Made by a program: the position numbers and the translations under genes. DNA of 64,000 nucleotides from Escherichia coli (GTDB lineage: Bacteria; Pseudomonadota; Gammaproteobacteria; Enterobacterales; Enterobacteriaceae), in assembly GCF_030013595.1 (NCBI RefSeq), contig NZ_CP122768.1. One strand, 5' to 3'. Below, in pieces: positions 1 to 41,095 of this stretch. The notes below the pieces were generated by a model that saw only the letters and a list, made by a program, of their open reading frames with translations, had not been told where the DNA came from and did not search any database. Each line of letters starts with the position of its first letter. Within the stretch, counting starts at the first letter, position 1.

Positions 1-270
1 CGTAAGTCGATGGCGTTCGTACTCAATAGTCCCTGGCTGGAGATCTGCCTCGCTGGCCTGGCGCAGTTCTTCAACCTCCCGGCGCAGCTTTTCGTTCTCA
101 ATTTCAGCATCCCTTTCGGCATACCATTTTATAACGGCGGCAGAGTCATAAAGCACCTCATTACCCTTGCCACCGCCTCGCAGAACGGGCATTCCCTGTT
201 CCTGCCAGTTCTGAATGGTACGGATACTCGCACCGAAAATGTCAGCCAGCTGCTTTTTGTTGACTTCCAT
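1..270 (-). CDS. nu1: Terminase small subunit Nu1, N-terminal part (gene continues past the left edge of the window)
   Basis: Reverse-strand translation from the ATG at 268-270 reads MEVNKKQLADIFGASIRTIQNWQEQGMPVLRGGGKGNEVLYDSAAVIKWYAERDAEIENEKLRREVEELRQASEADLQ..., which I recognise as phage lambda Nu1; a cos site lies just upstream. Confidence 0.9.
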   Translation of the reverse strand, partial: MEVNKKQLADIFGASIRTIQNWQEQGMPVLRGGGKGNEVLYDSAAVIKWYAERDAEIENEKLRREVEELRQASEADLQPGTIEYERHRLT

Positions 271-439
271 TGTTCATTCCACGGCCAAAAACAGAGAAAG
301 GAAACGACAAAGGCCCAAAAGTTCGTTTTCAGCACCTGTCGTTTCCTTTCTTTTCAGGGGGTATTTTAAATAGAAACATTAAGTTACGACGAAGAAGAAC
401 GGAAACGCCTTAAACCGGAAAATTTTCATAAATAGCGAA

Positions 440-470
440 AACCCGCGAGGTCGCCGCCCCGTGGCAGGCC
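440..470 (-). other. Lambdoid cos site (cosN cohesive-end sequence)
   Basis: Reverse complement of about 448-459 is GGGCGGCGACCT, the lambda left cohesive end, followed (in phage orientation) by lambda-like leader sequence running into nu1. Confidence 0.7.
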
Positions 471-863
471 ACCCCACCGGAAGGACCCGCACAAATGAGA
501 GTGATTATCACCATTGCTGATGAATAAATTGATGAAAATCATTAAAACGCCTTTCAGCAAGATAACGGCGACGGTCGTTGTTGCACTCCGTAACTCTGCG
601 ACTAAGGTTAAAAGCATGGCCCTCTTTTGCCACCGGCAAATCTTCAATGGATTTCCCCTGCCGGTTTTTTATTTTCGTCGATGCATAACATTGCATTTAC
701 ATCAATAGCGGCTATTGTCATTAGTATGTTGCATAAATGCATGGGTGGTATTGGCGGTCTTCGCCGGCCGGTTCTGTGTAGCTGGACCGTTTTTTTATTT
801 CTCACATTACAGCAGCCCCTTAGAGTGAAGGGCTGCTGTAATGCCGCAATCTTTTTTAACATG

Positions 864-883
864 AAAAAGGCCGCAGAGCGGCC
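864..883. repeat. attL core of the P2-like prophage (direct repeat copy 1)
   Basis: Exact 20-bp match to 36907-36926; contains the hairpin GGCCGC-aga-GCGGCC. Confidence 0.6.
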
Positions 884-1008
884 ATAAACACAAGTAAAAA
901 TCAATAAGTTATATAATTATCAAAGACTTACAGACACACAAAAACACAGCCAACCACAACAAATAACAGGGATGTGGTCATTTTGTGGATCATATCGCCG
1001 CCATAAAT

Positions 1009-1446
1009 TTACTTAATAACAGTAACCACAGCCACAAGCACGGCCATCGCAGACAGGACAATACCTGTGAGTAACCAAGTCTGATTTGCAAATGATTTCT
1101 GAAGTTCAGTACGATGCTCAGCCATCTCAACTTTCAGAGACTGGCGTAAATCAGCCATCTCAGACTTCAGGGATTGGCGCGATTCTGCCATCTCAAGCCT
1201 CAACCCTTCGCGAATCTCCAGTACATCAGATTTGGTAGCAAAGGATTCGCTTCTTGTGGTGAGAGTAATCAGGTTGTTTTTGATTTCAGTCACATCACTT
1301 TCCAGGCAACTGACCCGCCGTTCAAGGTCGTCATTCATGCCATCACCTCCATCATTACCACTTCCTGTTACTTGGTTGTTGGATACATTATAGGCATTCT
1401 CTTTCTTTTTTCTGAACCGCGAAATATGTGCAACATTCTCTGCCAT
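1009..1446 (-). CDS. Hypothetical coiled-coil protein with C-terminal transmembrane anchor (cargo)
   Basis: ORF with repeated heptad-like segments (LRLEMAESRQSLKSEMADLRQSLKVEMAEHRTEL) and a hydrophobic C-terminus; start overlaps the stop of the upstream ORF (TGATG). Confidence 0.5.
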   Translation of the reverse strand: MAENVAHISRFRKKKENAYNVSNNQVTGSGNDGGDGMNDDLERRVSCLESDVTEIKNNLITLTTRSESFATKSDVLEIREGLRLEMAESRQSLKSEMADLRQSLKVEMAEHRTELQKSFANQTWLLTGIVLSAMAVLVAVVTVIK

Positions 1447-1808
1447 CACTTCTCATCACCCTGCTTGCCTACCCAGTTCATAAAGGCCCGGGCCGAGTAA
1501 CGATGAACAAACCCACATCTGTTACAGGTAAGTCGGAATTCATAGTTATGGATATTTTCCCGATCATGTCCCTCATATCCCGGATACCCAGTAAATGGAC
1601 CGATGTAATCAAGCATAACAAAAGTGCCTAAATCACACTCCTCAGCAGTTTTCGGCTCAGGCCCCACCTCAACAATATTCGTCAAATACATGTACATATC
1701 CGTATCGCCACACGACAAACATTTTTCATTCGTAGACGACTCATTGAGAAAACGCGCAAAATTATCGAGCGTTGCCATTCTTTTAAGTTCATCTAAATGA
1801 AACTTCAC
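1446..1808 (-). CDS. Hypothetical protein with two CxxC pairs (possible zinc ribbon), cargo
   Basis: GTG start preceded by AGGAGG located inside the last int codons; CLSCG and CNRCG motifs. Confidence 0.5.
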   Translation of the reverse strand: MKFHLDELKRMATLDNFARFLNESSTNEKCLSCGDTDMYMYLTNIVEVGPEPKTAEECDLGTFVMLDYIGPFTGYPGYEGHDRENIHNYEFRLTCNRCGFVHRYSARAFMNWVGKQGDEK

Positions 1809-1810
1809 TC

Positions 1811-2788
1811 TTAAGCACCTCCTAGTGGATTAAACCTCACCGCATCCTGCAGGTAATCCGGCGCAAGATGGGCATAAATCATCGTTGTCTGAATCTTTGC
1901 GTGCCCCAGAATTTTCTGGAGCGTCAGAATATTGCCGCCGTTCATCATGAAATGACTGGCGAAGGTATGGCGCAGCGCATGAACAGCCTGGCCGTCAGGA
2001 ACATCAGGTGCGACCGTTTTGATGACATCGCGAACCAATGGATAATCCAGCGTCGGAAACACCAGTTTCCCGCCCCGTATTTTGATCTTTTCAAACAGGC
2101 TTTCAGAAATAGGAACGGTACGGTTTTTGCTGTTCTTCGTTTTTGAAAAAGTGATTCGACAATGAAGAACACGGCGCTGCTCTAGTGCCGCTACCTCGCC
2201 CCATCGCGCCCCGGTCGACAGAAGGATTTCGACAGCCAGCCGTTCATCGGGATTTTCAGCCAGTGCATCCAGCAACTGAACACATTCAGACTTACTCAGA
2301 TATCCCATTTCGCGCTCGTTAACCTTCATTCCTTTAAGGCCTTGAACGGGGTTATCGTTAAGAAAATGGCCGGATGAGATGAGTGCGGTAAACATCGCGC
2401 TTAACGCCCCAATCTCTCGATTTATGGTGCTGGGCTGTATCCCCTGCTCTATCCTGGACACACGTAGCTCGGTGAGCATCGTTGTATTAAGTTTATGCAC
2501 GCACGGGTCATCCATTGCCTCACTCAAGCGCAGCAATTTAAGGCGCGTGTTATGCCCTGACTTCATTAGCTGGCCGTGGTATTTCCACCACAAGTCAATA
2601 AGCACTGACAGCGGGCGGCGATCAATGGAGTTTCCTTTCCACTCATTGTTATGCTGTTGCGCCAGCACCCACCGCTCATATAAAACTGCATCCGATTTCG
2701 TTTTAAATTTTTTGCGAATGCGTTTGCCTTTACGCCCCTCAGGACGCATGTCAAGAAGATACCCTCCCGGAATTGATTTTATGCTCAT
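1811..2788 (-). CDS. int: Tyrosine integrase (P2 Int-like)
   Basis: C-terminal HxLRHT...Y catalytic region (AVHALRHTFASH...MIYAHL); adjacent to C repressor as in P2. Start chosen at MSIKS (ORF is open up to 2938). Confidence 0.85.
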   Translation of the reverse strand: MSIKSIPGGYLLDMRPEGRKGKRIRKKFKTKSDAVLYERWVLAQQHNNEWKGNSIDRRPLSVLIDLWWKYHGQLMKSGHNTRLKLLRLSEAMDDPCVHKLNTTMLTELRVSRIEQGIQPSTINREIGALSAMFTALISSGHFLNDNPVQGLKGMKVNEREMGYLSKSECVQLLDALAENPDERLAVEILLSTGARWGEVAALEQRRVLHCRITFSKTKNSKNRTVPISESLFEKIKIRGGKLVFPTLDYPLVRDVIKTVAPDVPDGQAVHALRHTFASHFMMNGGNILTLQKILGHAKIQTTMIYAHLAPDYLQDAVRFNPLGGA

Positions 2789-2837
2789 TCGTGAAGCCCC
2801 AGCGTTACAAGACCACCATGCCCCCAGCGTTCCATGA

Positions 2838-3149
2838 TTAGCCGGGCTGTGTGCCAGTCTTGCGGGATTTTTGAGAAGACGATGTGTTTTCTGGCCCATC
2901 AGGGGAGAGAGAAGGACTGATCTGCCCAGCAGCCTCATTTGTTTCGTTACTCATCAACCACGTAGTGTATTTTTTAAATTCCGGGTGCATTGTGATTTTC
3001 AGTAAAACCTCCGTTCCCACACCTCGAATACCAGTCTCGTATTGCTTAACCGTACCAACCGCAATACCTATTGAATCCGCGAACTTTGCCTGACTAAGCC
3101 CCTCAGATTCTCGAATTGCTTTTAGCTTCTTTGATATCTCTATTGACAT
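2838..3149 (-). CDS. C: Immunity repressor (P2 C-like, HTH)
   Basis: About 103 aa from MSIEISKKLKAIRESEGLSQAKFADSIGIAVGTVKQYETG; helix-turn-helix; divergent from the early operon. Confidence 0.75.
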   Translation of the reverse strand: MSIEISKKLKAIRESEGLSQAKFADSIGIAVGTVKQYETGIRGVGTEVLLKITMHPEFKKYTTWLMSNETNEAAGQISPSLSPDGPENTSSSQKSRKTGTQPG

Positions 3150-3244
3150 GGTGTGCACCTGAATACTATATTGGTTATCAGTTGAGTACCACTTGACACT
3201 ACAAAGAGCCACAAATAGCACCAGATTGAATAGGTTATCACACC

Positions 3245-3523
3245 ATGGCAAAAGTCCTTAACACATACGAACAAGCGGATTTTGAGCGTTTGGCGGCGTT
3301 CTACCCATACCGTAATGAACATGGGCTACCGGTACTTGAAGAAAGCCTGGAGGATTATGCGAAACGCACAAATCAAAGCATTCTCGCTGTAAGAAGGCAG
3401 GCTGATAGATCGGTAATTCCCGTTACTCAAGAAGGAAGAAACACAAAACGCAAAGTAAATCTCTTCGCAATTTTCCTGAAAACCATCAGAAACGCAGAGA
3501 AATACGTGCAAATGACAAAATAA
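3245..3523 (+). CDS. First early-operon gene, putative Cox/Apl-like regulator
   Basis: 92-aa ORF divergent from the repressor, positionally equivalent to P2 cox; no clear sequence match recalled. Confidence 0.45.
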   Translation: MAKVLNTYEQADFERLAAFYPYRNEHGLPVLEESLEDYAKRTNQSILAVRRQADRSVIPVTQEGRNTKRKVNLFAIFLKTIRNAEKYVQMTK

Positions 3524-5583: not shown

Positions 5584-8406
5584 ATGACGGCAAAGTACAT
5601 CAGGGACTGGCAACAACCGCGCCACGCAGTGGGGCGTGAAGGAACGGGGATCCCCGCTCCTGAATCCGCGCTTTCCTCCTGGCTGGATGCCTACCGGGCA
5701 GAGAACGAGCGCCGCCAGGAAATGGCTGATGCGGCGTTCTCCGCCACGCCGCTGGGCAACCTGATTAATAAAAGCCTGGACGCACAGGAAAAACAGGACA
5801 AAACCATCACACTGGCAGGAGACGCCAGAAAACAGGCACGCGGCGCGGTGGATGAAGCCATGGCCTCGCTGCGCCTGCTGCCGTCCTATCTGCGCGATCC
5901 GCTTATTCGCCACCTCTCCTTCCTGCGCAAAAAACAGGAAGCCGATCGTCAGAAAGGAAAAAACGCCAGGCAGGCAGAACGCTATGCGCGTGGGACCCTG
6001 CGCAAAATATTCGAACGTCTGGAGCGCACCGATCACCGCTGGCTGACACCGGGTTATCGCTCCCTTGCCGGACGCGAACGCCTGGACGATTTGCTTTACC
6101 TGCCGCAGCTCAACAAACACCAGATACAGACGCTGGCCACCATGACGGCGGCGATGTTCAGCAGCACCTTCGAAAAACTCTGCGATGGCTTTGGCGCGAC
6201 CGATGGCGAACTGACCATGGATGTAACGCTGAAGGCGTATCAGATGCTGGCCCGCATGGCGTTACACCTGCACATCATGCCTCCACATTATGACGCACTG
6301 ACAACAGACAAAGACCGGAGGAACGAACCGGACACGGAGCTGCTGCCGGGCGCAATCCTTCGCCTGACCTGTGCGGAATGGTGGAAACGCAAACTGTGGC
6401 TGTTACGTTGCGAGTGGCGGGAAGAACAACTCCGCGCCGCCTGTCTGGTTTCCAGAAAAACATCACCCTATCTGAGCCAGGACGCGTTAAGCGAGTTTCG
6501 CGCACACCGCGAGAAAACACGCGATTTCCTGAAAAGTTTCATGCTGGAAAATGAAGACGGGTTCACGATTGATCTCGAGACGGTGTATTACGCGGGAGTA
6601 AGTAACCCGGTTCACCGTAAGGCAGAAATGATGGCCACCATGAAGGGGCTGGAACTTCTGGCCGAAGCCCGTGGCGACAGAGCGGTGTTTCTGACTGTCA
6701 CCTGCCCGTCAAAATACCACGCAACAACGGAGAACGGTCATCCGAATCCCAAATGGAACGGGGCCACCATGCGCGACTCCAGCGATTACCTGGTTAACAC
6801 GTTTTTTGCGACGGTCCGCAAAAAACTGAACCGCGACGGTCTTCGCTGGTATGGCATCCGCACGGTGGAGCCTCACCATGACGGCACTGTGCACTGGCAT
6901 ATGATGGTCTTTGCACATCCGGACGAGATTGAAACCATCGTGTCCCACGTCTGCGATATTGCCATTCAGGAAGACCGCCACGAGCTGGGCGATGATATTA
7001 CTCCGCGTTTTAAAGCGGAGTACGTCGACGGCTCAAAAGGCACGCCAACCAGCTACATCGCCACCTACATCGGAAAGAACCTGGACAGCCGCGCCGTGGA
7101 TGGCATCGCCCCGAAAACGGGCAAGCCACGCGTTGACCACGAAACCGGAAAATCAATGGCCGAGAGCGTGGAGCGCGCCATCGGCTGGGCGCGCCTTCAC
7201 CGGGTCCGCCAGTTCCAGTTCTTTGGCATCCCCTCCCGTCAGGTGTGGCGTGAACTGCGCCGCCTTGCCAGCCAGATGGCACGCAACCCGGAAGGCCCGC
7301 AACGGCTGAAGGATGACGCAATGGATGCAGTGCTCGCTGCCGCTGATGCCGGGTGTTTTGCCTCCTACATTGAAAAACAGGGCGGCGTACTTGTTCCACG
7401 CCAGGACTACCTGATTCGCACCGCCTACGACCTCGCAGATGAGCTGAACGATTACGGCGAACAGAGCGTACAGATTTACGGGATCTGGTCACCACTCATC
7501 GGGGAGTCTTCCCGTGTGTGCACACATCCGGATAACTGGAAGCTGGTAAGACGTAAACCGGAAGCGGAAGACAGCGCCCGCGAAAATGGTTTTGACCTTC
7601 AGGGCGGCCCTGCCGCCCCTTGGACTCGTGGCAATAACTGTCCCCGTGTACAGGAAACGGACAACAACGGGACAGAACAGCCGGAAGAACGGCCAGCACC
7701 GTGGCCGCAGCTCCCTGACGGCGTTGAAGTGAACGAATGGATGCGCTCACTGAAACGGCACGAACGCCGGGCGCTGATGCGTTCGCTTCGTGACAAACAG
7801 GCAAAAAACAGCAGTGATGAAATGCAGAGCTGGACACAGAGCCGCAAACAGCAGCGGCCTTTGCCTGATAACCACGAATTACTCGCTAAAGAATGGCGGG
7901 AGTCTGCTGAATCTCTCGGCCTGCATATCGGTGAACAACAGATGCAGCACCTGTTACGGGGCGGCAGTCTGTACGTTGACGGCAGCATCATTGCACCGCA
8001 GGGATTTGAAATTGTACGCAAACCGGATACCCGCCCGGACAGCCGAATCACGCAGCTCTGGCAGCGCCTGAGCCGTAATCATGGCGTAAGCAGCACGGAG
8101 ATCCGCCATAACCCGGTCGCCAGCTATCTGGCACAGCTGGGGGCATCAGACCCTGAAGCCGCCGCACGCCTGGCATCCACACTTCAGCAGGACCAGAACA
8201 CCATGAAAACACCCGTTACCGTGCTTTCTGACATGCTGCGCGCCATCCGCGACGCAGAGCACGCACAGAGAATCAGTGAAACCACTGAACGCGCCAGCCG
8301 CAAAGCAGACCTGCTGCGGGGTGGCCTGACCAGTGGAAACAAAAAACAGACAGAAACGGGACTCACGAATCCCGCAAATGAGCAAAAAACGCGCAGCGAT
8401 ATATGA
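5584..8406 (+). CDS. A: Replication initiation endonuclease (P2 gpA family, rolling-circle)
   Basis: 940-aa ORF with the HUH-type region (GTVHWHMMVFAHPDE) and conserved P2 position between early genes and the Q/P packaging genes. Confidence 0.85.
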   Translation: MTAKYIRDWQQPRHAVGREGTGIPAPESALSSWLDAYRAENERRQEMADAAFSATPLGNLINKSLDAQEKQDKTITLAGDARKQARGAVDEAMASLRLLPSYLRDPLIRHLSFLRKKQEADRQKGKNARQAERYARGTLRKIFERLERTDHRWLTPGYRSLAGRERLDDLLYLPQLNKHQIQTLATMTAAMFSSTFEKLCDGFGATDGELTMDVTLKAYQMLARMALHLHIMPPHYDALTTDKDRRNEPDTELLPGAILRLTCAEWWKRKLWLLRCEWREEQLRAACLVSRKTSPYLSQDALSEFRAHREKTRDFLKSFMLENEDGFTIDLETVYYAGVSNPVHRKAEMMATMKGLELLAEARGDRAVFLTVTCPSKYHATTENGHPNPKWNGATMRDSSDYLVNTFFATVRKKLNRDGLRWYGIRTVEPHHDGTVHWHMMVFAHPDEIETIVSHVCDIAIQEDRHELGDDITPRFKAEYVDGSKGTPTSYIATYIGKNLDSRAVDGIAPKTGKPRVDHETGKSMAESVERAIGWARLHRVRQFQFFGIPSRQVWRELRRLASQMARNPEGPQRLKDDAMDAVLAAADAGCFASYIEKQGGVLVPRQDYLIRTAYDLADELNDYGEQSVQIYGIWSPLIGESSRVCTHPDNWKLVRRKPEAEDSARENGFDLQGGPAAPWTRGNNCPRVQETDNNGTEQPEERPAPWPQLPDGVEVNEWMRSLKRHERRALMRSLRDKQAKNSSDEMQSWTQSRKQQRPLPDNHELLAKEWRESAESLGLHIGEQQMQHLLRGGSLYVDGSIIAPQGFEIVRKPDTRPDSRITQLWQRLSRNHGVSSTEIRHNPVASYLAQLGASDPEAAARLASTLQQDQNTMKTPVTVLSDMLRAIRDAEHAQRISETTERASRKADLLRGGLTSGNKKQTETGLTNPANEQKTRSDI

Positions 8407-8451
8407 AGCGCGCACAAAACAGGCAAAAACGGGATTTCAGAATCCCGTAAA
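8354..8451. repeat. Two copies of a roughly 25-bp palindromic motif (AAACGGGA-N6-GAATCCCG-AAA) upstream of parM; candidate centromere/operator
   Basis: Copies at about 8354-8378 and 8427-8451, each an inverted repeat CGGGA...TCCCG; copy 1 overlaps the 3' end of A. Confidence 0.45.
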
Positions 8452-8482
8452 CGATTAATTAATCAACATAAGGAAAAGCGAC

Positions 8483-9442
8483 ATGAAAATTTGTATCGAC
8501 GACGGCTCCACCAACATCAAGCTGGCATGGACTGAGAACGGCGAACGCCGCAACGCCATCAGCCCGAACAGCTTCAAGTCGGAATGGTCTGCGCCGTTCG
8601 GCGGCACGCAGCCCGCGAACTACATGCTTGATGGCGTGCGCTATGGTTTTGATCCGGTCAGCGATCGCTTTGTCCAGACGACCGACACGCAATACCAGTA
8701 CAGCGATGTAAATGTCATTGCCATTCATCACGCGCTGGTCAAATCAGGCATCACGCCACAGGAGGTGGATGTGGTTGTCACCCTGCCACTGAGCGAGTAT
8801 TTCGACACAAACGCACAGCCGGACATGGCCAACATCAACCGCAAAAAAGCGAACGTTATGCGCCCGGTGGAGTACCAGAACGGCGAAGCATTCACTATCC
8901 GTAACGTGCGGGTTATGCCTGAATCCATTCCGGCTGGCTTTAAAGCACTGGCTGACATGAGTCCGTTTGAATCCCTGCTGATTGTGGATTTAGGTGGAAC
9001 CACGCTGGATGTGGCAAAGGTTCAGGGACAACTGGCAGGTATCAGCCAGGTGTTTTGCGATCCACACGTAGGCGTTTCCCTGATGGCCGATGCAGTACTG
9101 TCGGTGATGGCCACTAACGGTATGCGTACCAGTCACCACATCGCCAATACCATTATCGAACATCGCCATGATGAAGCCTGGCTGCGCCAGCACATCCACA
9201 ATGACGCGCATTACGCCAGCCTGATGGCGGTTATTCGTGAAAAGGAAGAAACACTGAAACAACGCGTGATCCGCGCGCTGGCGGGTTTTTCGGGTTACGG
9301 GCGGGTGATGGTTGTCGGTGGCGGGGCGGAGATTGTGGCACCCGCTATCCGCGAAGCCTGCGGAGTTAATGCGACTTTCATCGCGGACGGGGTGCCACAG
9401 TTTGCTCTGGTTAATGGGCTGTACGCAATGGACAAGGAGTAA
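8483..9442 (+). CDS. parM: ParM/StbA-like actin-family partition ATPase
   Basis: Residue-level similarity along the whole length to plasmid R1 ParM as I remember it (IDDGSTNIKL, YSDVNV...HHAL, VMPESIPAG, LI.DLGGTTLD, GGGAE, LVNG). Confidence 0.85.
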   Translation: MKICIDDGSTNIKLAWTENGERRNAISPNSFKSEWSAPFGGTQPANYMLDGVRYGFDPVSDRFVQTTDTQYQYSDVNVIAIHHALVKSGITPQEVDVVVTLPLSEYFDTNAQPDMANINRKKANVMRPVEYQNGEAFTIRNVRVMPESIPAGFKALADMSPFESLLIVDLGGTTLDVAKVQGQLAGISQVFCDPHVGVSLMADAVLSVMATNGMRTSHHIANTIIEHRHDEAWLRQHIHNDAHYASLMAVIREKEETLKQRVIRALAGFSGYGRVMVVGGGAEIVAPAIREACGVNATFIADGVPQFALVNGLYAMDKE

Positions 9443-9446
9443 ACCA

Positions 9447-9758
9447 ATGACGACACCAACCAGACGGATAAGTTTCTATCTGAAGCCCGCCGCCGTCAAG
9501 AACGAAGGCGAAGCATGCGCCTGGCTGGACAGCCTTACACCAGAAGCCCGCAAAAGCGGCCAACGTGTGGCTTTTCTGGCCGGGCTGGCACTTCTGAAAA
9601 TGAATCCGGCAGAGGCTTACCGACTGGCTGCATGGGCTGACGATGAGGCGTTATCAGTGACACAAACCAGGACAGAACGCCCCGCGTCACAGCCAGTACC
9701 AACCACACAGATAACCAGTCGGATGGCCGGAAATATCAGGGCGTTATTTCCCGAATAA
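9447..9758 (+). CDS. parR: ParR/StbB-like centromere-binding protein
   Basis: Starts 4 bp after parM; resembles R1 ParR from memory (FYLKP, AALTAGLAL-type helix, RALFPE C-terminus). Confidence 0.6.
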   Translation: MTTPTRRISFYLKPAAVKNEGEACAWLDSLTPEARKSGQRVAFLAGLALLKMNPAEAYRLAAWADDEALSVTQTRTERPASQPVPTTQITSRMAGNIRALFPE

Positions 9759-9821
9759 CACAACATCAGGGCGCATCCGCCCTGATGACTTTAATCCGGG
9801 AACATAAACAAGGGGGACACA

Positions 9822-10154
9822 ATGCAACACATTGACAGAGAAAAAGCGCAGCGACTGATTGAGCGGATGGAAGCGCTGGCGAAAGAAGAAAATGTCAACA
9901 TCCAAAAAATAGCTGAATGTGGCCAGATAGTTCTTCGTCGTGAAAAAGACCTCAAACAACTGATGTCTGGCGAAACCAGCAAAACATGGACTTCAGGCGA
10001 GGAGACGATTTATTGCAGCTTCTGCAATAAATCTCAGTACGAAGTCACAAAGGTGATTGCCGGACCGTCTGTTTACATCTGCAATGAGTGCGTGGATTTG
10101 TGCAATGAAATTATCAGGAGAGAAGTGACAGACAAAAAGGGAAAAAACGCATGA
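9822..10154 (+). CDS. Small protein with a C-terminal ClpX-type C4 zinc-binding domain
   Basis: [39 protein letters not shown] closely parallels the ClpX N-terminal zinc-binding domain ([40 protein letters not shown]); no AAA+ module follows. Confidence 0.7.
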
Positions 10155-10489
10155 ACAGAAAACAAAAACAAGAGTTGAAATACTTTTTACGTAAAGAAAT
10201 TGCCAGGCTTGAAGATGCAGAATCACAATCATCAGAAATTCCGTTCGGAATGGATATCAACGACGCCCGTATGCTCCAGGCATACCGCATAGCTCAGGCT
10301 GCACTACAGGCAAAACCGTCAGATGGACTGGTTAGAGCAGTACGATTCTATGAACTGGTAAAGCGTGAGAATCCGCCAGCCGAAACCGGAGCATGGAAAG
10401 ACGCTGTTGACTGGGTACTCAAAGAGGCTTGTCAGGTTGTAAACACTGGCATCAAAGGAGACCTAGCCCAGCCTGCATCAAAGCTATAG
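10151..10489 (+). CDS. Hypothetical protein translationally coupled to the ClpX-ZBD gene
   Basis: ATGA overlap with upstream stop; 112 aa, no recognised domain. Confidence 0.5.
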
Positions 10490-10498
10490 AAATGAGCC

Positions 10499-10527
10499 AA
10501 AACGCCCTCTTCCAGGGCGTTTATTTC
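10499..10527 (+). terminator. Rho-independent terminator after the accessory genes
   Basis: GC stem AACGCCCT/AGGGCGTT followed by a T-rich tract. Confidence 0.55.
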
Positions 10528-10980
10528 AATGCACAATAGTGCACAAATTTGCACAATTTTTTTGAACGAATTTTTGCCCTTCCGGCCCGCGTGACAGTTG
10601 GATCCGTCAAGGATCCGTGCGTGCACAAAAAAACGCGCTTTTTCTGCGCGCAGGTGACGGGGGAACAGCCCGCGTTTCAGGGGGTAAATAGCATTCCCTG
10701 AACGATGTCGCAGAGATACAACAGAATGGCTGTATTTCTCACGCTGAGCGTGAAAAAGATGTGAGGGCTTTTGATTTGATGGGGTGAAAGGTAAGGCCGT
10801 CAAAATCGCACTGAGGCGGCGAGAACATACAGTCAACGCGGTAGGATTGCGTAAGAGTCTGACCGTCGATGGTGGCGATAAACTGGAAGGCGTCGTGAAA
10901 TTATCTGATTGATACAGGAGCTGGAGAGTCGGGGCATAAATTTTTTATGCCCCGGCGAAGCAGCAGACAAGCGAAGCGCG

Positions 10981-12027
10981 TCAGGATGTGGGCTGGGTAT
11001 CTAACAGTGCGTAAGGGTTAAAGCGGATCACCTCTTCGCCAAGCCAGTCATTGATGTGCTTCATGGCCTCCATGACGGGCATCAGCTCGTTAATTGCGTA
11101 AACCCGCGCGGCCTTCTCCACATCACCAAACGCACTTTTTTCACCCGGCATCGCTCCCATCAGTTGCGGCGGAACGCGGTGCGCAGCCAGCACATCATCA
11201 CGGGATGCCGCCTTAACATTCATGAACTCATCCTTTGCGGTGATCTGCTGGAACGGCAAAATTTGCACACCTTCTTTGCCCCCGTTGGGCGCATGAATGA
11301 GCACGTTTTTAAATGCACCACCACCACGCGCACCCTGTAACGTTTCTTTCAGGGAGTCCATGCTTTCGCGGTTTACCTGCGCTGCACCGATGTAGATGAT
11401 GCACCCGGCGTGGGATCCGTTGTCGTAATACAGTTTTCTGAACATGTCCGCCGAATGAGACAGGCTGGCCGAGAGTAATGCGCCAAGATATTCCGGCATG
11501 CCGTAAATTTCCTGGTTAATGTCAGGATTCATCAGGTGACACACTTTGCCTGGGCGAAACTGAAACGCATCCTTGCCATCCTGCACATACCACCATGATT
11601 CAAGATCGCTTCCGCGTCGCATGTATTTCGCCAGGGCGTGCCGTAATTTAAGCGGTTCGCCGAGCATATTGCTTCGAAGCTCAAGGAATGCGTTACCGAA
11701 CACAAACCAGTCCAGCGCCAGCGCCGAGAAATCCTGCCGGGAAAGCAGCGGGTGCGGAATATAGCAGCCGAGCAATACATTGCGCTTAAAGTAAAGCGCA
11801 GACTGATGCCAGGACGTTTGCCGGGCAGCTCTTGCCAGACCGTACCAGTCTACCGGGGTTTCATACCACCGCCCGTTATCAGCACAGTACATATTGTCCA
11901 GCAGGTCATGCCCGGTCAGGCGATAAGGACCATCAAATGTGAATGCACTGAGCGATGATTCTTTCCTGAGCGCATCAGCGAGATCAATGCGTGAACTCAT
12001 GCGCACTTTTTTATTTTTTCTGCTCAT
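10981..12027 (-). CDS. Q: Portal protein (P2 gpQ)
   Basis: 348-aa ORF matching P2 Q in size and position, divergent from O. Confidence 0.85.
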   Translation of the reverse strand: MSRKNKKVRMSSRIDLADALRKESSLSAFTFDGPYRLTGHDLLDNMYCADNGRWYETPVDWYGLARAARQTSWHQSALYFKRNVLLGCYIPHPLLSRQDFSALALDWFVFGNAFLELRSNMLGEPLKLRHALAKYMRRGSDLESWWYVQDGKDAFQFRPGKVCHLMNPDINQEIYGMPEYLGALLSASLSHSADMFRKLYYDNGSHAGCIIYIGAAQVNRESMDSLKETLQGARGGGAFKNVLIHAPNGGKEGVQILPFQQITAKDEFMNVKAASRDDVLAAHRVPPQLMGAMPGEKSAFGDVEKAARVYAINELMPVMEAMKHINDWLGEEVIRFNPYALLDTQPTS

Positions 12028-19839: not shown

Positions 19840-20417
19840 GCGCAGAACTCATGCGACTGCTGAGCAATATCATCCGCACCGGGATCATCTCTGAAGTTGA
19901 TGAGAAGTCCTGGCGCGTGCGCGTTCGCAGCGGCGAACTGGAAACAGGCTGGTTGCGCTGGAACACCACGCGCGCGGGAGCCTTCAATGTATGGCTGCCG
20001 CCATCACCAGGCGAACAGGTGGTAATTGCCTGCATTGGCGGCAACCCGGAAACCGCCATGATAATTGGCAGCCTGTGGAGTGATGCCAGTCCGGCCCCCG
20101 GCAAAAGCCTGAAAGAAATCGTGGTCAGCGCGCCGGATGGCGCGGCGTTCCGCTACGACGCAGACGCTGGCGCACTGAGCGCCAGCGGCATGAAAACAGC
20201 CACCCTGCAGGCATCCGTCAGCGTGACACTGGATACGCCCGTCGTGGAATGCACAAACCTTCTGAGAACAGCGACGCTTGACGTCACAAAAGGGGGAAAG
20301 ATGAGCGGCAATATCACGCACAGCGGCGGCGATTTCACCTCAAACGGCATCACAGTGCATACGCATAAGCACGGTGGCGTTAAAGGTGGCAGCGATTCGA
20401 CAGGAGGCCCGCAGTGA
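19836..20417 (+). CDS. V: Baseplate spike/assembly protein (P2 gpV)
   Basis: 193 aa with the conserved GG/HTH..HGG C-terminus of gpV-type spikes. Confidence 0.85.
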   Translation: MSAELMRLLSNIIRTGIISEVDEKSWRVRVRSGELETGWLRWNTTRAGAFNVWLPPSPGEQVVIACIGGNPETAMIIGSLWSDASPAPGKSLKEIVVSAPDGAAFRYDADAGALSASGMKTATLQASVSVTLDTPVVECTNLLRTATLDVTKGGKMSGNITHSGGDFTSNGITVHTHKHGGVKGGSDSTGGPQ

Positions 20418-36906: not shown

Positions 36907-36926
36907 AAAAAGGCCGCAGAGCGGCC
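36907..36926. repeat. attR core of the P2-like prophage (direct repeat copy 2); also the terminator hairpin of the downstream lambdoid gene
   Basis: Exact 20-bp match to 864-883; on the minus strand it forms hairpin plus T-run just after the stop of ORF 36949-37164. Confidence 0.6.
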
Positions 36927-36948
36927 TTTATGGTTTATTGACAATTGA

Positions 36949-37164
36949 TTAAGACGTGTGGCACTTATTGGCACACCAATAGCAACCATTCACCCGGGAA
37001 TATCCTTTGGCCTTTGCCTCTGTTACCGCCGAAGAACAATCACTATAGTAACCAAGGTAATCGCGGTTAGCTACAGCAGGAAGATATGAACATTCCTCAG
37101 CATGCACCTCATGATCGCCATTGCTCTGAGCATTTTTGTTCACGTAATAGTGTTTAAAAACCAT
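36949..37164 (-). CDS. Hypothetical small Cys-rich protein (lambdoid late region)
   Basis: 71-aa ORF ending at a hairpin terminator. Confidence 0.4.
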   Translation of the reverse strand: MVFKHYYVNKNAQSNGDHEVHAEECSYLPAVANRDYLGYYSDCSSAVTEAKAKGYSRVNGCYWCANKCHTS

Positions 37165-37584
37165 TGTATAACTCCATGTTGACGCTGATATTCAGCATTA
37201 ACATGCTATATCACCAATTACACAAACATAAGCTTGTTATTTCAATTAGTTGATAACGATCACCACTGAACTTTGGCCTTGCGAAATTCAAATGTTTTTC
37301 TGACTATTATTGGGCCGATAAACAGATATTATTTGAGCGTTTTGGTTCATTACATAAGCAATATCTCCATCTTTCAGAATGACTTTCCCATCCTTTCCCG
37401 ATACGGCAATACTCCGCTGCTCAGGATGATAGCCAATGCTACGCCCGCAATGGATCTCTTCCCCACCATTTTGAGACATGACTTTTACAGTTAACATTTT
37501 TCTGCTCCTATTTAGATGCCCTTTCCATCCGGGCCACTGTTCAAAGTAAATTTAGATTCAACAATATTCTGCTCTTACAGGCGA

Positions 37585-37782
37585 TCAGTTCTGCATACAC
37601 TGCCGAACACCGTCGACAATTTCACAGACCTGAGAAGCTGTATCGAAAAGCTGGCGCGCCTTATCCAGGCTGACGCATCCCACCAGGAAAAAAGGCACCA
37701 GTATCGCTACCAGTGCCCATTTCGCCGCCGTTCGCGGCATTCTGTGTGTCCAGTGTTTTCGCTTCATCTCACTATCCACCAA
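37585..37782 (-). CDS. Putative small lipoprotein
   Basis: Signal peptide with lipobox FLVGC. Confidence 0.35.
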   Translation of the reverse strand: MVDSEMKRKHWTHRMPRTAAKWALVAILVPFFLVGCVSLDKARQLFDTASQVCEIVDGVRQCMQN

Positions 37783-38266
37783 TCAATCCGGATAAGCTCA
37801 ATACTCGCCAGGCGGTGGAAATGAAAATGGCAACCAACATTGCTGAAAATGAAAGGCCAACAACCACACAGAGAATTCGCGCCAGTTTTATAATGCTATC
37901 TGACATATTTACCCCTGCCCCACTTACGATTTCACAGCAATGAGCAATTTTGCCATCCCATACAGCATCGGAGACACAGCGATACCGACCGCCACCCACT
38001 TAATGGCAAAAGCCACCGCTCTGCTGATGTCATCAGTTACAGGCGCTTTCAATTCAAGGCCGTTTTTCATAGTCAACCTCAACAGAATTAGTTTATACTT
38101 CCTCATGTTCTCCTTTGCCTTACCCAAGGCCAGAAACAGAAAACCCCGGACTGTTACCGCAGCCGGGGTTTTTGCTATCTGATGCTATGCCCCTTACTTT
38201 CGCTCATCGTAGCCCCAGAAAAGAGCCTGCATGAGTTGAGGGTGTTCAGCACTTCAGTGTCAGTTT

Positions 38267-38833
38267 TTAAACCACCACGCGCTCTTTCATCCAGCCATAG
38301 ACAAACGACTCATTGGCCTCGCGTTTCTCTGCCAGCTCCAGATAACGCTCGCCCTGCGTACAGTTCAGGGCTTTCACCAGTACCAGTTCACCATCCCTGC
38401 TGCGATTTTTCAGATATGCCCGTAATGCATTAAGAGTACGCGGCCCGATGCGTCCATCAGCATCCATATCCGGATAGAGTTTCCCGCGCAGGTTGAAAAC
38501 GTTCAGCCAGCGCTGAAGCATTCTGGACGCCACAGTTGGCCCCATGTTCACGCCCGTATCGCACAACTCTGCGGCAATATCCGGAGACAGGTCCTCAACC
38601 TGGTCGAATCGTGGTCCGTACCAGTAGTCCGCCTCGAGTATTTCCAGCGCCTGCCCACGCGTCAGGTCACGCATATCGCCCTGATAACCGTGTGCACGGG
38701 CAACTTTTTCAGTGATGCCCCATTTAGTCGGACCACCTTTATCATCCGGGTGATTGACGTAACCGCCCTCTTTTCCCAGAATTTCGTCAAAAATTTCATC
38801 TTTCGACTTCATATCAGCGCCTTCGTAATACAA
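38267..38833 (-). CDS. Endolysin, GH108-type lysozyme with peptidoglycan-binding domain
   Basis: N-terminal EGGYVNHPDDKGGPTKWGIT block typical of GH108 phage lysozymes; follows holin-like genes. Confidence 0.7.
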   Translation of the reverse strand: MYYEGADMKSKDEIFDEILGKEGGYVNHPDDKGGPTKWGITEKVARAHGYQGDMRDLTRGQALEILEADYWYGPRFDQVEDLSPDIAAELCDTGVNMGPTVASRMLQRWLNVFNLRGKLYPDMDADGRIGPRTLNALRAYLKNRSRDGELVLVKALNCTQGERYLELAEKREANESFVYGWMKERVVV

Positions 38834-39104
38834 GGATTTTTGATACGTTCCCGCGTGCTCGTATCACCAGCACGCAGAACACCAGGTTAATCAGGACGAC
38901 CAGCCAGTTACCGGGAGGAAAGCGACCACACAGATAACAAAGCGGCGCAAAGGCATAAAGCAGCATCAGCAGCCAGGCCAGCCACGACATCAGCGGTTTA
39001 TGTCTCGACTCACCACGACGATAAAAAAAGAGCGTCAGCACGATAACCGTGCTTAACACCACATTCAGTAATCCGGGAAGGTTACTTAACATTACCGCCT
39101 CCAC
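38814..39104 (-). CDS. Putative holin/antiholin-like membrane protein
   Basis: Three hydrophobic segments; between holin and lysozyme. Confidence 0.4.
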   Translation of the reverse strand: MEAVMLSNLPGLLNVVLSTVIVLTLFFYRRGESRHKPLMSWLAWLLMLLYAFAPLCYLCGRFPPGNWLVVLINLVFCVLVIRARGNVSKILVLRRR

Positions 39105-39471
39105 CCCGCAGACGGGAGAACAGCCCGGATACCAGCGATGCGATATCCTGCTGGTGGATGAATGAGAGAATCTTCACCGACACCACCGATACCAGTACCG
39201 CACAAAGCGCGTCGAGAGATGTGCTGTGGAGATTCAATTTTTCGACCAGCCAGGACGCAAGGACATCCGCCCCCAGCACGCCAACAATGAACGACACCAG
39301 AAAATGCGCCGCCACACGCCAGACAGAAATCACCTGTGGCATCGTGGCCACAAACAACGCCCCGGCAAACGCGCCAAACACAATCCCGAAATCCGTCCCG
39401 GTAAACAGCCCGAATACCGTCGCCCCGCCGAGCGCCACAGCAGTGCTGGAACCGGATAAGGGTTCAGACAT
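39082..39471 (-). CDS. Putative holin
   Basis: Gly/Ala-rich transmembrane helices; first gene of the lysis cassette. Confidence 0.5.
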   Translation of the reverse strand: MSEPLSGSSTAVALGGATVFGLFTGTDFGIVFGAFAGALFVATMPQVISVWRVAAHFLVSFIVGVLGADVLASWLVEKLNLHSTSLDALCAVLVSVVSVKILSFIHQQDIASLVSGLFSRLRGGGGNVK

Positions 39472-41095
39472 ATTTATTCTCCTGTAAATAAAAAGGACCA
39501 TCAGCGGCCCCGTAACTGACATTTTATTAACGTTTGAAGATATGGATATTTATCAGGGTTTACCGTTTTCTGAACCCTGGATATGTTAAGCATTCAGCCC
39601 GCCAGTGGTGGGACGCTGGCTCATCATAGAGAAAGAGGGATGGCTGATTACCTCTGATCAGGGAAATCACATGCAGTTTTTACATAAAAGAATGCATTTA
39701 AATGCAGGAGATACGGTAGTGGTTGACTGCTCTCATCAGTGCAATATTTTGCTGATGACAGATACAAACTTTAATAACTACCGCAACGCAAGAAGCTTTC
39801 ATCATCACGGTGGTGGCGGTTTTTTTCAGAGATTACCGGCCCACCTTCATGTACCGCATTCAGGTTACTGGAATATTACAATTGATTTAGGAGGCGGAAG
39901 TGCAGCTATTCGGCACTCCATTTCCGTCATCCCAGCATAGCAACTCGCCTTTAGCCTGAGTAAATGCGTCCTCAAGGACGGCAACGAGTCGCAGTTGCGT
40001 GCCGTCCTTTACACAGCGTGTGCAGGCAATACCTTCAGAACTTTCATTATGCCGAGCTCATACAATTTCACCATTTTGTTCAACTACAACGCTCATAATT
40101 TTCTTACACTTTTTTAATAAACCACACCAATAACAACCATCACCGATACCTTTTGTATGCTGTTATTTTGCATTACGGTGTAACGGCAAGAGCCCCCTCC
40201 CCGCCCTGAAAGGCTCTGTGTTTTTGATGTGCGCCTGATGTGGCTCAGATACAAAAAAGCTCGCAGTAGCGAGCTAACAGAAAATATGAAGCATGTTTTT
40301 ATCCACGAAGTATGACGTTGAATTCATCCATACCGACACGGCTGGCTATCTCGTTGTATTCCTCAACAAGAGCCAGCAATTCTGAATTAGCAGCCATGAA
40401 CTCTTCAAAAACCTTATGGATGGCATCACTGTTTAATAAAACAATGTTCTTTCCTGAAAGGCGATCAGGGGTAGAAAATATAACTGTCAAACGACTAAAG
40501 GCCCTGGCTCGTTCAGCATTAACATCCTCAATACGCTGCAACAAGCTGGAGCACCTGGAAATATCATCAATATTCACTCTACTCCTGCCATCTGGATGAT
40601 AATCATTTCACGGAGAGAAGCACTCAGAAGTACCACTGAAGTATAGCTGGTGACCAGCTACTTACACATCTATTGCCATCCTGCTGATGATAAGTCGACA
40701 TTAGCCCTTCTGTCTATAAACGAAACAAAGGATAAGTTCAGGTTTTAAACACACTGCCAGGATAAAGTATTGTATACAGTATAGAAGAGCGTTATTGAAT
40801 GACATAAAAAACCAGACCTAATCCCTTATCCGGAAGATATATCAAATAAACGGGGAAAATGTATTAAGATGGCGTTCCTATTCTCTCCATCCCTGATGTC
40901 CACGTAACTCGTTATAGAATCAGAACGCCATCTGAATACACACAAAAAAGCTGACTTCACACCCTCCAGATGTGTGAACGCAGTGCCCGACCACGTGCTT
41001 TCGCAACCAGCACAAATCATTTTAAAGCATCGAAAAACGATCAGAATATATCAGAACTTCCTAGCATCCTGCTTGGCTTAGATATTAATCGAGGA

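What the first reader, a model, noticed from the sequence alone, without database searches (positions are those of the whole stretch)
8407..10980. Accessory locus between replication gene A and portal gene Q (the P2 tin/old position) holds a non-canonical gene set
Established knowledge (from memory): in P2 this interval carries old and tin and has been reported as a hotspot for anti-phage cargo. Seen in sequence: here it instead contains a ParM/ParR-like cassette, a small ClpX zinc-binding-domain protein coupled to a 112-aa unknown, a terminator and about 450 bp of noncoding DNA. None of these belong to a defence family I recognise, so the locus is a candidate for a new accessory function.
Basis: partly seen in the sequence, partly recalled or inferred. 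Interest (0 to 1): 0.7.

Follow-up and report, generated by a model that had tools for sequence, protein, structure and literature searches.

The report
P88 prophage partition genes plus cargo
This is the already sequenced and catalogued region next to the packaging site of the P2-like coliphage P88: a plasmid-type ParM/ParR partition pair that is fixed in this phage lineage, followed by a small swappable slot that here holds a copy-cat of the ClpX protease docking domain and a fragment of an Ea22-like gene, none of them tested for function.

Summary
All features sit at the stated coordinates. The interval is 99.1% identical over its full length to phage P88 (Xuanwuvirus, a P2 relative).

ParM/ParR are lineage backbone, not variable cargo. 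The A-to-parM junction is intact in 1286 of 5426 complete E. coli genomes, almost always on the chromosome, and parM is under strong purifying selection (pN/pS 0.06).

Only about 9790-10529 varies between relatives. Here it holds a 110-aa protein whose zinc finger core is 83% identical to the E. coli ClpX N-domain, and a 112-aa chimeric ORF left by a 1-kb deletion from a five-gene array. Relatives carry Ea22-like genes, DUF3800 (a PADLOC candidate) or other cargo in the same slot.

The conserved 451 bp next to Q is the cos-proximal region. Rousset et al. 2022 described this hotspot, noted the partition system in about a quarter of P2-like phages, and listed this exact domain arrangement.

No defence family matches. 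My best reading: ParMR acts on the phage's transient circular DNA, and the zinc-finger protein is a decoy for ClpX adaptors or substrates. Both mechanisms are inferred and untested. Interest is modest.

The parts
5584..8406 (+). Replication endonuclease gene A (940 aa). It is the left border of the locus, and its last ~20 codons overlap the first palindromic repeat.
   Evidence: PHROG 91 and 6857; P88 gp16.
8356..8374 (.). Palindromic repeat 1 (ACGGGACTCACGAATCCCG), part of a 42-nt direct repeat. Candidate ParR binding site (parC or operator).
   Evidence: the only two matches in the 64-kb window; present in all 12 loci compared, with small variations.
8429..8447 (.). Palindromic repeat 2 (ACGGGATTTCAGAATCCCG), 73 nt from repeat 1 and 35 nt upstream of the parM start.
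8483..9442 (+). parM, an actin-like partition ATPase of the R1 type. Backbone gene of the P88-like lineage.
   Evidence: E 9e-93 to R1 ParM, motifs intact; PHROG 691; pN/pS 0.06.
9447..9758 (+). parR adaptor (Plasmid_stab_B). The N-terminus (RRISFYLKP) and C-terminal tail (NIxxxFPE) are conserved; the middle region occurs in three allelic forms.
   Evidence: (PHROG 2515).
9764..9787 (.). Perfect 10-bp hairpin after parR, still part of the conserved backbone. It has no U-tract on the plus strand and looks like a terminator on the minus strand, so it could insulate parR from leftward-transcribed cargo.
   Evidence: -18.4 kcal/mol, z -4.9.
9790..10529 (.). The variable cargo slot. The left breakpoint falls at 9758-9846 and the right at 10530 in most loci (10463-10516 in a few).
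   Evidence: 12 loci. (alternative cargoes).
9822..10154 (+). 110-aa protein made of a helical N-terminal hairpin and a ClpX-type C4 zinc-binding domain (residues 57-104) with no AAA+ module. It mimics the ClpX N-domain.
   Evidence: (30/36 identical to the E. coli ClpX core).
10151..10489 (+). 112-aa chimeric ORF. Residues 1-104 correspond to the 104-aa gene of longer cargo arrays. The last 8 residues come from the end of the last gene of that array after a 1007-bp deletion (junction at 10461/10463).
   Evidence: No Pfam match. AF2 predicts four helices at pLDDT 70.
10319..10461 (+). Segment coding the near-invariant C-terminal module ([37 protein letters not shown]..GIKG). It is shared at about 90% nucleotide identity with Ea22-like genes of lambdoid and Stx prophages and of ~90-kb plasmid records. 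It ends in the recurrent gene-junction linker ATCAAAGGAGA.
10500..10529 (+). Intrinsic terminator closing the rightward transcription unit (stem AAACGCCCT/AGGGCGTTT, then TTTATTT).
   Evidence: (I7).
10530..10980 (.). Conserved cos-proximal non-coding region. TGCACAAT repeats lie at 10530-10560. The ends of a linear virion-derived record map to 10574/10575. GC-rich stretches lie at 10575-10597 and 10644-10676. A hairpin sits at 10930-10954 just after the Q stop. The exact cos cut site was not determined.
   Evidence: Searches give the position of cos in P2.
10981..12027 (-). Portal gene Q, the right border of the locus.

Best explanation
The interval is the cos-proximal A-Q accessory region of a P88-type (Xuanwuvirus) P2-like prophage. 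It has three layers.

**1. ParM/ParR cassette (shown to be backbone; mechanism inferred).** It is an intact R1-type cassette with two palindromic candidate ParR sites, and it is fixed in this phage lineage. It abuts gene A on the same strand with no terminator or recognisable promoter between them. I infer that it is expressed with the early operon. I also infer that it acts on the phage's transient extrachromosomal circles, that is, the infecting, excised or replicating DNA. ParM filaments would push these circles apart so that both daughter cells or the replication sites receive copies. It would not maintain a long-term plasmid prophage.

**2. Variable slot, about 740 bp (variability shown; function inferred).** It holds a deletion-reduced 'ea-type' array of small early genes.
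- The first gene encodes a free-standing mimic of the ClpX N-terminal zinc-binding domain. I infer that this protein binds adaptors or substrates that normally dock on the ClpX N-domain, or pairs with the N-domain itself. Either way it would dampen or redirect N-domain-dependent ClpXP proteolysis to the phage's benefit.
- The second gene is a chimeric remnant carrying the conserved C-terminal module of Stx-phage-type Ea22-like proteins.

**3. Terminator and conserved cos region.** A terminator closes the unit, followed by the conserved non-coding region that holds cos.
For: **Identity of the element**
- 99.1% identity to P88 over the whole interval.
- Same layout as P2 A-tin-old-cos-Q.

**ParMR is backbone**
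- Junction intact in 1286 of 1371 matching genomes; 1531 chromosomal places against 2 on plasmids.
- ParM is 96-100% identical in all P88-like phage records; pN/pS 0.06.
- Active-site motifs are conserved relative to R1 ParM; ParR is Plasmid_stab_B.
- The two palindromes upstream of parM are the only copies in 64 kb.

**Early-operon reading**
- The gap after A is 76 nt, with no terminator and no promoter of 9/12 or better upstream of parM or of the ClpX-finger gene.

**Precedent**
- The actin-like AlpC with its adaptor AlpA, in the integrated prophage CGP3, is needed for efficient viral DNA replication (PMC4446434).

**The slot**
- Breakpoints are shared by 12 loci, and alternative cargoes occupy the same place.

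**The ClpX mimic**
- E 2e-19 to the E. coli ClpX N-domain structure 1OVX; 30/36 core identity; no AAA+ module.
- The ClpX N-domain dimerises on its own and recognises MuA, FtsZ and the adaptors SspB and RssB, but not the ssrA tag (PMC5415555).
- Divergent homologues (44-54% identity) recur in the same hotspot of other P2-like prophages that lack ParMR. They are always co-oriented with A.
- Homologues also occur in the ea-type regions of phages D6 and PhiR41_1.

**Chimeric 112-aa ORF**
-.
Against: - No expression data exist. The promoter argument rests on a simple consensus scan.
- Only two candidate ParR sites were found. As I recall, R1 parC has ten iterons, and phage D6 has several TCTCA repeats. 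The palindromes are no better conserved than the DNA around them. A functional centromere is therefore not shown.
- A complete P88-like genome is deposited as a 34.5-kb circular 'plasmid', so plasmid carriage is not excluded.
- A sublineage carries a ParM::cargo fusion that deletes parR (P0133, 143 contigs). ParMR is therefore dispensable for prophage persistence.
- The ClpX-finger gene shows weak constraint among close relatives (pN/pS 0.71) and is frameshifted in one locus.
- AF2 on a linked construct gave no support for a complex between the two cargo proteins (pTM 0.24).
- No binding or proteolysis data exist for any member of this family.
Confidence: 0.55

Rival explanations
1. Plasmid-prophage model, as suggested by Rousset et al. 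ParMR lets P88-like phages persist as low-copy plasmids instead of, or as well as, integrating.
For: The ParM and ParR genes are complete and conserved. Rousset et al. make this suggestion explicitly. One complete 34,461-bp P88-like genome is deposited as a circular plasmid. The nearest phage ParM outside the lineage (48% identity) belongs to D6, a 91-kb circular record that carries P1-like genes and a ParA-like partition gene next to its ParM pair.
Against: Of 1533 A-parM junctions in complete E. coli genomes, 1531 are chromosomal. An integrase is present. A copy 100% identical to the 'plasmid' is integrated in another isolate. P88 and PhiSM behave as integrating, inducible prophages. From memory, the P2-type A/ori replicon belongs to the repressed early operon, so a repressed episome would not replicate. 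A circular contig can also arise from spontaneous excision.
Confidence: 0.2
2. First reader's model. The cargo, or the whole four-gene set, is a new anti-phage defence system in the tin/old hotspot.
For: The locus is a documented defence hotspot. Some relatives carry a PADLOC candidate (DUF3800 = PDC-M04A, E 2.5e-35) or a Csx27-like protein in the same slot. ClpXP takes part in at least one defence system, CmdTAC.
Against: None of the four proteins matches a PADLOC model. The cargo is co-oriented with the lytic early operon and has no detectable promoter, whereas the defence-type cargoes in relatives and tin/old in P2 point the other way. The proteins are small and have no enzymatic domain. 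The array is a deletion remnant. The arrangement does not appear in the table of systems Rousset et al. tested.
Confidence: 0.1
3. The cargo is a decaying, selectively near-neutral passenger left by recombination in the hotspot, with no current function.
For: The 1007-bp deletion created a chimeric ORF. pN/pS is 0.71 for the ClpX-finger gene. The gene is frameshifted in strain ET358. The slot turns over rapidly.
Against: The ClpX-finger family is kept intact at 44-54% identity across several phage backbones, with invariant zinc ligands and conserved positions in the N-terminal domain. The C-terminal module of the 112-aa ORF is near-invariant in hundreds of proteins. The same deleted form occurs in P88 and in independent isolates.
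Confidence: 0.15
4. ParMR acts against other elements. Prophage-made ParR and ParM would destabilise incoming plasmids or phage-plasmids that use a related partition system, by partition incompatibility.
For: This is only indirect. ParMR sits in a hotspot devoted to inter-element conflict, and related ParM systems exist on phage D6 and on R1.
Against: ParM is only about 48% identical to the D6 and R1 proteins. ParR shows barely detectable similarity to D6 ParR. The candidate sites differ completely from the D6 repeats. No expression in lysogens has been shown.
Confidence: 0.05

Closest known systems
Plasmid R1 ParMRC (type II partition system)
   Same: ParM aligns end to end with R1 ParM (E 9e-93) and keeps all nucleotide-binding motifs. 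ParR is in the same Pfam family, Plasmid_stab_B. The gene order parM-parR with upstream repeats is the same.
   Different: The host element is a chromosomally integrating P2-like phage. Only two palindromic sites are present rather than an iteron array. No promoter is detectable within the site region. The cassette directly follows the phage replication gene.
gpA-gpQ (tin/old) hotspot of P2-like phages (Rousset et al. 2022, PMC9122126)
   Same: Same position next to cos. The same publication already lists StbA + Plasmid_stab_B + zf-C4_ClpX + hypothetical, and notes partition systems in about a quarter of P2-like phages.
   Different: In the P88 lineage the variable part is only the ~740 bp after parR. 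ParMR itself behaves as backbone. The cargo here is oriented with the early operon, unlike tin/old.
AlpC/AlpA of Corynebacterium prophage CGP3 (PMC4446434, PMC5539076)
   Same: An actin-like filament protein and a DNA-binding adaptor are encoded by an integrated prophage and act on the excised, replicating viral DNA. This is the working model I favour for ParMR here.
   Different: I ran no sequence comparison with AlpC or AlpA. The host and phage type differ. The function of the P88 pair is untested.
E. coli ClpX N-terminal zinc-binding domain (PDB 1OVX, 2DS5-8)
   Same: The four cysteines are present and 30 of 36 core residues are identical. This is the domain that dimerises and docks SspB, RssB, MuA and FtsZ.
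   Different: There is no AAA+ unfoldase module. Instead it is fused to a phage-specific ~55-aa helical hairpin that has only 12 cluster representatives in 1.8 billion proteins.
Ea22 / ead-Ea22-like proteins of lambdoid and Stx phages (PMC7093339, PMC10834534)
   Same: The 112-aa ORF shares its C-terminal ~46 residues (about 80% identity) with proteins annotated Ea22-like in Stx and lambdoid phages. Ea22-like genes occupy the same slot in relatives and flank the ClpX-finger gene in D6 and PhiR41_1.
   Different: It matches neither Pfam Ead_Ea22 nor the solved lambda Ea22 C-terminal domain. It lacks the central segment of the longer homologues and carries a foreign 8-residue tail.
Lambda RexB (recalled from memory, not checked here)
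   Same: A prophage product reported to inhibit ClpP-dependent degradation of lambda O and of antitoxins. It is a precedent for a temperate phage tuning ClpXP.
   Different: RexB is an unrelated membrane protein expressed in the lysogen, and its mechanism is not domain mimicry.

Membership tests
Type II ParMRC partition system | Actin-fold ATPase ParM with intact phosphate-1, phosphate-2 and adenosine motifs | tested here: met
   E 9e-93 to R1 ParM over residues 2-316; IDDGSTNIKL, DLGGTTLD and GGGAE are conserved.
Type II ParMRC partition system | Small ParR adaptor encoded directly downstream of parM | tested here: met
   (Plasmid_stab_B, E 2e-24). The gene starts 4 nt after the parM stop.
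Type II ParMRC partition system | Centromere parC: an array of repeats bound by ParR, usually containing the autoregulated promoter | tested here: inconclusive
   Two 19-bp palindromes lie 73 nt apart. They show no extra conservation over the flanks. No promoter of 9/12 or better was found.
Type II ParMRC partition system | Stabilises an unstable replicon; ParM forms dynamic filaments capped by ParR/parC | not testable with these tools
   Needs plasmid-loss assays and microscopy.
Variable cargo of the P2-like gpA-gpQ hotspot | Lies between gpA and gpQ next to cos | tested here: met
Variable cargo of the P2-like gpA-gpQ hotspot | Differs between otherwise near-identical relatives | tested here: met
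   Met for 9790-10529 only. Not met for parM/parR or for 10530-10980.
Known anti-phage defence systems (PADLOC-DB v2) | At least one protein matches a defence-system model | tested here: not met
   no hit for ParM, ParR, the ClpX-finger protein or A. The 112-aa ORF gave only E 0.013 to PDC-M28C, which is noise.
ClpX unfoldase | N-terminal C4 zinc-binding domain | tested here: met
ClpX unfoldase | AAA+ ATPase module with pore loops and the IGF loop for ClpP docking | tested here: not met
   The protein is 110 aa. NCBIfam ClpX models match only profile positions 3-52 and score far below the cut-off.
Ead/Ea22-like family (Pfam PF13935) | Match to the Ead_Ea22 profile | tested here: not met
   no Pfam hit even at E 10. 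Only the C-terminal module is shared with some members.
Phage-plasmid | Prophage normally carried as an extrachromosomal replicon | tested here: not met
   1531 of 1533 junctions are chromosomal. An integrase is present. One circular 34.5-kb record exists, and an identical copy is integrated elsewhere.

The most novel reading that the evidence does not exclude
The 110-aa protein could be a phage-made decoy of the ClpX N-domain. It would selectively block adaptor- and N-domain-dependent ClpXP proteolysis while sparing ssrA-type degradation. That could protect labile phage early proteins or disarm ClpXP-dependent abortive-infection systems such as CmdTAC. This would be a counter-proteolysis strategy by domain mimicry, recurring in the A-Q hotspot of several P2-like lineages. 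In parallel, ParMRC in an integrating phage found in about a quarter of complete E. coli genomes could be a DNA-positioning machine for the lytic or establishment phase rather than a plasmid-maintenance device.
Probability: 0.25. Interest if true: 0.6.

Novelty: new member of a known kind. Interest (0 to 1): 0.35.

Why it matters
- **ParMR prevalence.** An intact, strongly conserved R1-type ParMR pair sits in an integrating P2-like prophage found in about 24% of complete E. coli genomes, including O157:H7, O104:H4 and ST131. Nobody has tested what it does. If it acts on transient phage circles, the role of plasmid partition machines would extend to the life cycle of integrating viruses.
- **ClpX mimic.** The ClpX N-domain mimic is a plausible and easily testable example of a phage tuning a host protease by copying its docking domain.
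- **Limits.** The element is a known phage, the hotspot and this exact gene arrangement are published, and the specific cargo here is a deletion remnant. The finding sharpens existing questions rather than opening a new one.

Tried and rejected
- **PADLOC** scan of all proteins: nothing.
- **Rfam** at E up to 1 over 8200-11100: nothing.
- **Promoter search** upstream of parM, upstream of the ClpX-finger gene and in the non-coding region: nothing of 9/12 or better in a useful position.
- **P2 cos.** I looked for it by local alignment and by a mismatch scan. The best match has 6 of 19 mismatches, no better than elsewhere in the window. The cos cut site stays unassigned. The only positional clue is the ends of the linear P88_4B11 record at 10574/10575.
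- **Structure of the 112-aa ORF.** PDB sequence search found nothing, including the lambda Ea22 C-terminal domain. The AF2 model has pLDDT 70 and four helices. Foldseek against PDB gave no hit below E 1.
- **Cargo complex.** An AF2 run on the two cargo proteins joined by a linker gave pTM 0.24, and confidence in the partner half fell. This gives no support for a complex, but the method is weak.
- **N-terminal domain of the ClpX-finger protein.** An exhaustive search found only 12 cluster representatives, all close relatives, with no informative fusion.
- **Literature.** No paper characterises stand-alone phage ClpX zinc-finger proteins. The P88 and PhiSM papers do not study the partition genes.
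- **The 34.5-kb 'plasmid' copy.** I tried to find out whether it is the only copy in its strain. The strain's chromosome was not among the listed hits, so this stays inconclusive.
- **Palindromes.** They are no better conserved than their flanks.
- **Predicted tRNA-Leu.** The prediction at 20123-20212 lies in a region that reads as coding sequence, so I treated it as a likely false positive.
Full report
**1. What is in the sequence**

The ORF list and the sequence show the following layout.
- Replication gene A: 5584-8406 (+), 940 aa.
- A 319-aa ORF: 8483-9442 (+).
- A 103-aa ORF: 9447-9758 (+).
- A 110-aa ORF: 9822-10154 (+).
- A 112-aa ORF: 10151-10489 (+). Its ATG overlaps the previous stop (ATGA).
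- A hairpin with a U-tract at 10500-10529.
- 451 bp further without a convincing ORF.
- Portal gene Q on the minus strand, 10981-12027, followed by the terminase.

- The 319-aa protein hits the PHROG 'partition protein' family 691 (E 2e-90). It aligns end to end with R1 ParM (E 9e-93), and the three nucleotide-binding motifs are intact.
- The 103-aa protein is Pfam Plasmid_stab_B (E 2e-24).
- The 110-aa protein carries zf-C4_ClpX at residues 64-99 (E 9e-18).
- The 112-aa protein has no Pfam match.
- The terminator hairpin folds at -14.3 kcal/mol, z = -3.8.

**2. Identity of the element**

The interval is 99.1% identical over 100% of its length to Escherichia phage P88 (NC_026014; Peduoviridae, Xuanwuvirus). 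The gene order int-C-cox-...-A-parM-parR-gp19-gp20-Q-P matches the window. P88 was induced from the chromosome of a porcine E. coli K88 strain. Its relative PhiSM of Citrobacter rodentium is a spontaneously released temperate phage that forms lysogens in E. coli K-12. The P2 record confirms that this position corresponds to orf91-tin-old-cos.

**3. Backbone versus cargo**

I searched 5426 complete E. coli genomes with a probe spanning the 3' end of A and the 5' half of parM.
- The probe found 1371 genomes.
- In 1286 of them (94%, or 24% of all genomes) the junction is intact at 96-99% identity.
- 1531 places are chromosomal and 2 are on plasmids.

The whole 2.6-kb interval is covered to at least 80% in only 184 genomes.

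Pairwise comparison with 12 loci places the breakpoints.
- Similarity ends between 9758 and 9846.
- It resumes at 10530 in most loci, and at 10463-10516 in a few.

ParM is 96-100% identical in amino acids in every P88-like phage record, with pN/pS = 0.06.

ParR keeps its N-terminus (RRISFYLKP) and its C-terminal tail (NIxxxFPE). Its middle part comes in three allelic forms.

So parM, parR and the 451-bp Q-proximal segment are lineage backbone. Only about 740 bp (9790-10529) is a swappable slot.

Relatives fill that slot with different genes:
- Ea22-like genes;
- a pseudogenised PAPS-reductase-domain gene;
- a reverse-oriented DUF3800 gene that matches the PADLOC candidate PDC-M04A (E 2.5e-35);
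- a reverse-oriented DUF4760 plus Csx27-like pair in ST131;
- other small ORFs.

**4. Prior knowledge**

Rousset et al. 2022 (PMC9122126) defined the gpA-gpQ region as a cos-proximal hotspot. [quoted passage not shown] These terms do not occur in their table of experimentally tested systems. The arrangement is therefore catalogued but uncharacterised.

**5. The partition cassette: how it may work**

*Shown.* ParM and ParR are complete, and the genes are tightly linked. Two 19-bp palindromes (8356-8374 and 8429-8447) sit within a 42-nt direct repeat just upstream of parM. They are the only such sites in the 64-kb window.

*Not shown.* I cannot say that these sites form a centromere. There are only two of them, and they vary about as much as the surrounding DNA. 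Phage D6 carries the nearest phage ParM outside the lineage (48% identity). It has several TCTCA repeats in a 270-bp leader.

No terminator separates A from parM, and no promoter of 9/12 or better lies upstream of parM.

From memory, P2 transcribes A from the early promoter that the immunity repressor shuts off. Also from memory, P2-type replication produces monomeric circles that serve as the packaging substrate.

Taken together, I favour a role on the transient extrachromosomal phage circles after infection, excision or replication. The documented analogue is AlpC/AlpA of the integrated prophage CGP3 (PMC4446434).

The plasmid-prophage idea is weakened by three facts:
- carriage is almost exclusively chromosomal;
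- an integrase is present;
- the replicon is a lytic-type one.

One complete 34,461-bp P88-like genome is deposited as a circular plasmid. An identical copy is integrated in another isolate. Whether that plasmid is a stable episome or an excision product cannot be decided here.

A sublineage carries a ParM(1-124)::cargo fusion that removes parR (P0133, 143 contigs). ParMR is therefore not needed for the prophage to persist.

**6. The cargo**

*The 110-aa protein.* Residues 57-104 align with E. coli ClpX residues 13-60 (E 2e-19). Identity is 31/48 overall and 30/36 in the core, including all four cysteines. There is no AAA+ module.

The N-terminal ~55 residues form a predicted helical hairpin. 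This part is restricted to a narrow family: 12 cluster representatives in 1.8 billion proteins.

According to PMC5415555, the ClpX N-domain dimerises independently. It is needed for MuA, FtsZ and the adaptors SspB and RssB, but not for the ssrA tag.

A free copy of this domain is therefore most simply a competitor for those ligands, or a partner for the N-domain itself. From memory, the isolated N-domain inhibits lambda O degradation in vitro.

Homologues at 44-54% identity recur in several other settings.
- They occur in the A-Q hotspot of other P2-like prophages of E. coli and Salmonella that lack ParMR. There they are always on the same strand as A.
- They occur in the 'ea' regions of phages D6 and PhiR41_1, next to Ea22-like genes.

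The gene therefore looks like an autonomous early-gene module.

Among close relatives its constraint is weak (pN/pS 0.71), and one copy is frameshifted.

*The 112-aa ORF.* It is modular.
- Residues 1-60 recur with a different C-terminus in the 135-aa cargo of pZ1323PEC0009-2.
- Residues 57-104 form a near-invariant module found on hundreds of prophage proteins with unrelated N-termini, including Ea22-like proteins of Stx phages.

The coding DNA for this module (10319-10461) is about 90% identical in lambdoid prophages and in ~90-kb plasmid records.

The module ends in ATCAAAGGAGA(GTGA). This linker encodes ...IKGE-stop and provides the ribosome-binding site of the next gene. It recurs at cargo gene junctions in several phages.

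Compared with the five-gene array of strain 99-3311 and phage PhiR44_2, the window and P88 lack 1007 bp. That array is ClpX-finger, a 104-aa gene, an XF1762-family gene, an 87-aa gene and an 86-aa gene. The deletion fuses the 104-aa gene to the last eight codons of the last gene. The '112-aa unknown' is thus a chimeric remnant.

Structure prediction gave four helices at moderate confidence, with no informative structural neighbour. A linked two-protein model gave no support for a complex.

**7. The non-coding 451 bp**

This segment is conserved at 94-96% in all relatives. It is also present in a Gemsvirus record that lacks the upstream genes.

By position it should contain cos, as in P2. It has no detectable similarity to the 19-nt P2 cos. 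The ends of the linear record P88_4B11 map to 10574/10575. I leave the cut site open.

**8. Verdict**

The features are real. The element is a known phage and the hotspot is known. The domain arrangement is already listed in the literature.

Even there, a defence role is the less likely reading.

Two open questions have some value:
- what an R1-type ParMR does in an integrating phage present in a quarter of complete E. coli genomes;
- whether the ClpX N-domain copy is a protease decoy.

Both need experiments.

Noticed in passing
window 10984-11006; L017 9392-9916; L018 4317-4841: Some relatives (ST131 and TUM1881) carry a second small insertion point right at the stop codon of portal gene Q. 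It holds a 174-aa ORF of unknown function between the cos region and Q.
   Followed up: partly
window 10450-10463; L002 3545-3562 and 4040-4055; L015 2993-3008; L006 3465-3480: A conserved gene-junction linker, ATCAAAGGAGAGTGA(t/g)ATG, recurs between unrelated cargo genes in different phages. It encodes ...IKGE-stop and supplies the next gene's ribosome-binding site. It looks like a recombination joint for shuffling small early genes.
   Followed up: partly
protein P0133 (191 aa, seen on 143 contigs): An in-frame fusion joins ParM residues 1-124 to the C-terminal part of the 112-aa-type protein. This corresponds to a deletion of the parM 3' end, parR and the ClpX-finger gene in a widespread sublineage.
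   Followed up: partly
window 9447-9758 compared with L015, L016, L017: ParR occurs in three allelic forms that differ strongly in the middle third, while ParM and the ParR termini stay the same. The O157:H7 and ST131 prophages share one form.
   Followed up: partly
window 5584-8406: The A protein is 940 aa, against 761 aa for P2 A (2286-nt gene in the P2 record). The first palindromic repeat lies inside its last ~20 codons.
   Followed up: no
window about 36908-50000 and beyond: This part of the window is a lambdoid prophage (antiterminator Q, DNA methyltransferase and other genes). It is 100% identical to chromosomal prophages of pig E. coli/ETEC strains. In those genomes it did not match contiguously with the P88-like part.
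   Followed up: partly
window 20123-20212 (-): ARAGORN predicts a 90-nt tRNA-Leu(CAG) inside what reads as coding sequence in the late-gene region. It is probably a false positive.
   Followed up: partly
L001 (P88 RefSeq) gp19, gp21, gp22: RefSeq names the ClpX-finger protein 'carboxylate--amine ligase', which no domain match supports. It also annotates two tiny ORFs (47 and 42 aa) inside the conserved cos-proximal region; I think these are unlikely to be genes, though I did not test this.
   Followed up: no
L014 2784-3590 (-); L017 5939-7318 (-): Reverse-oriented cargoes in the same slot of relatives look defence-like. DUF3800 matches the PADLOC candidate PDC-M04A (E 2.5e-35). A 279-aa protein weakly matches Csx27 (E 1e-5) and sits next to a DUF4760 protein.
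   Followed up: partly
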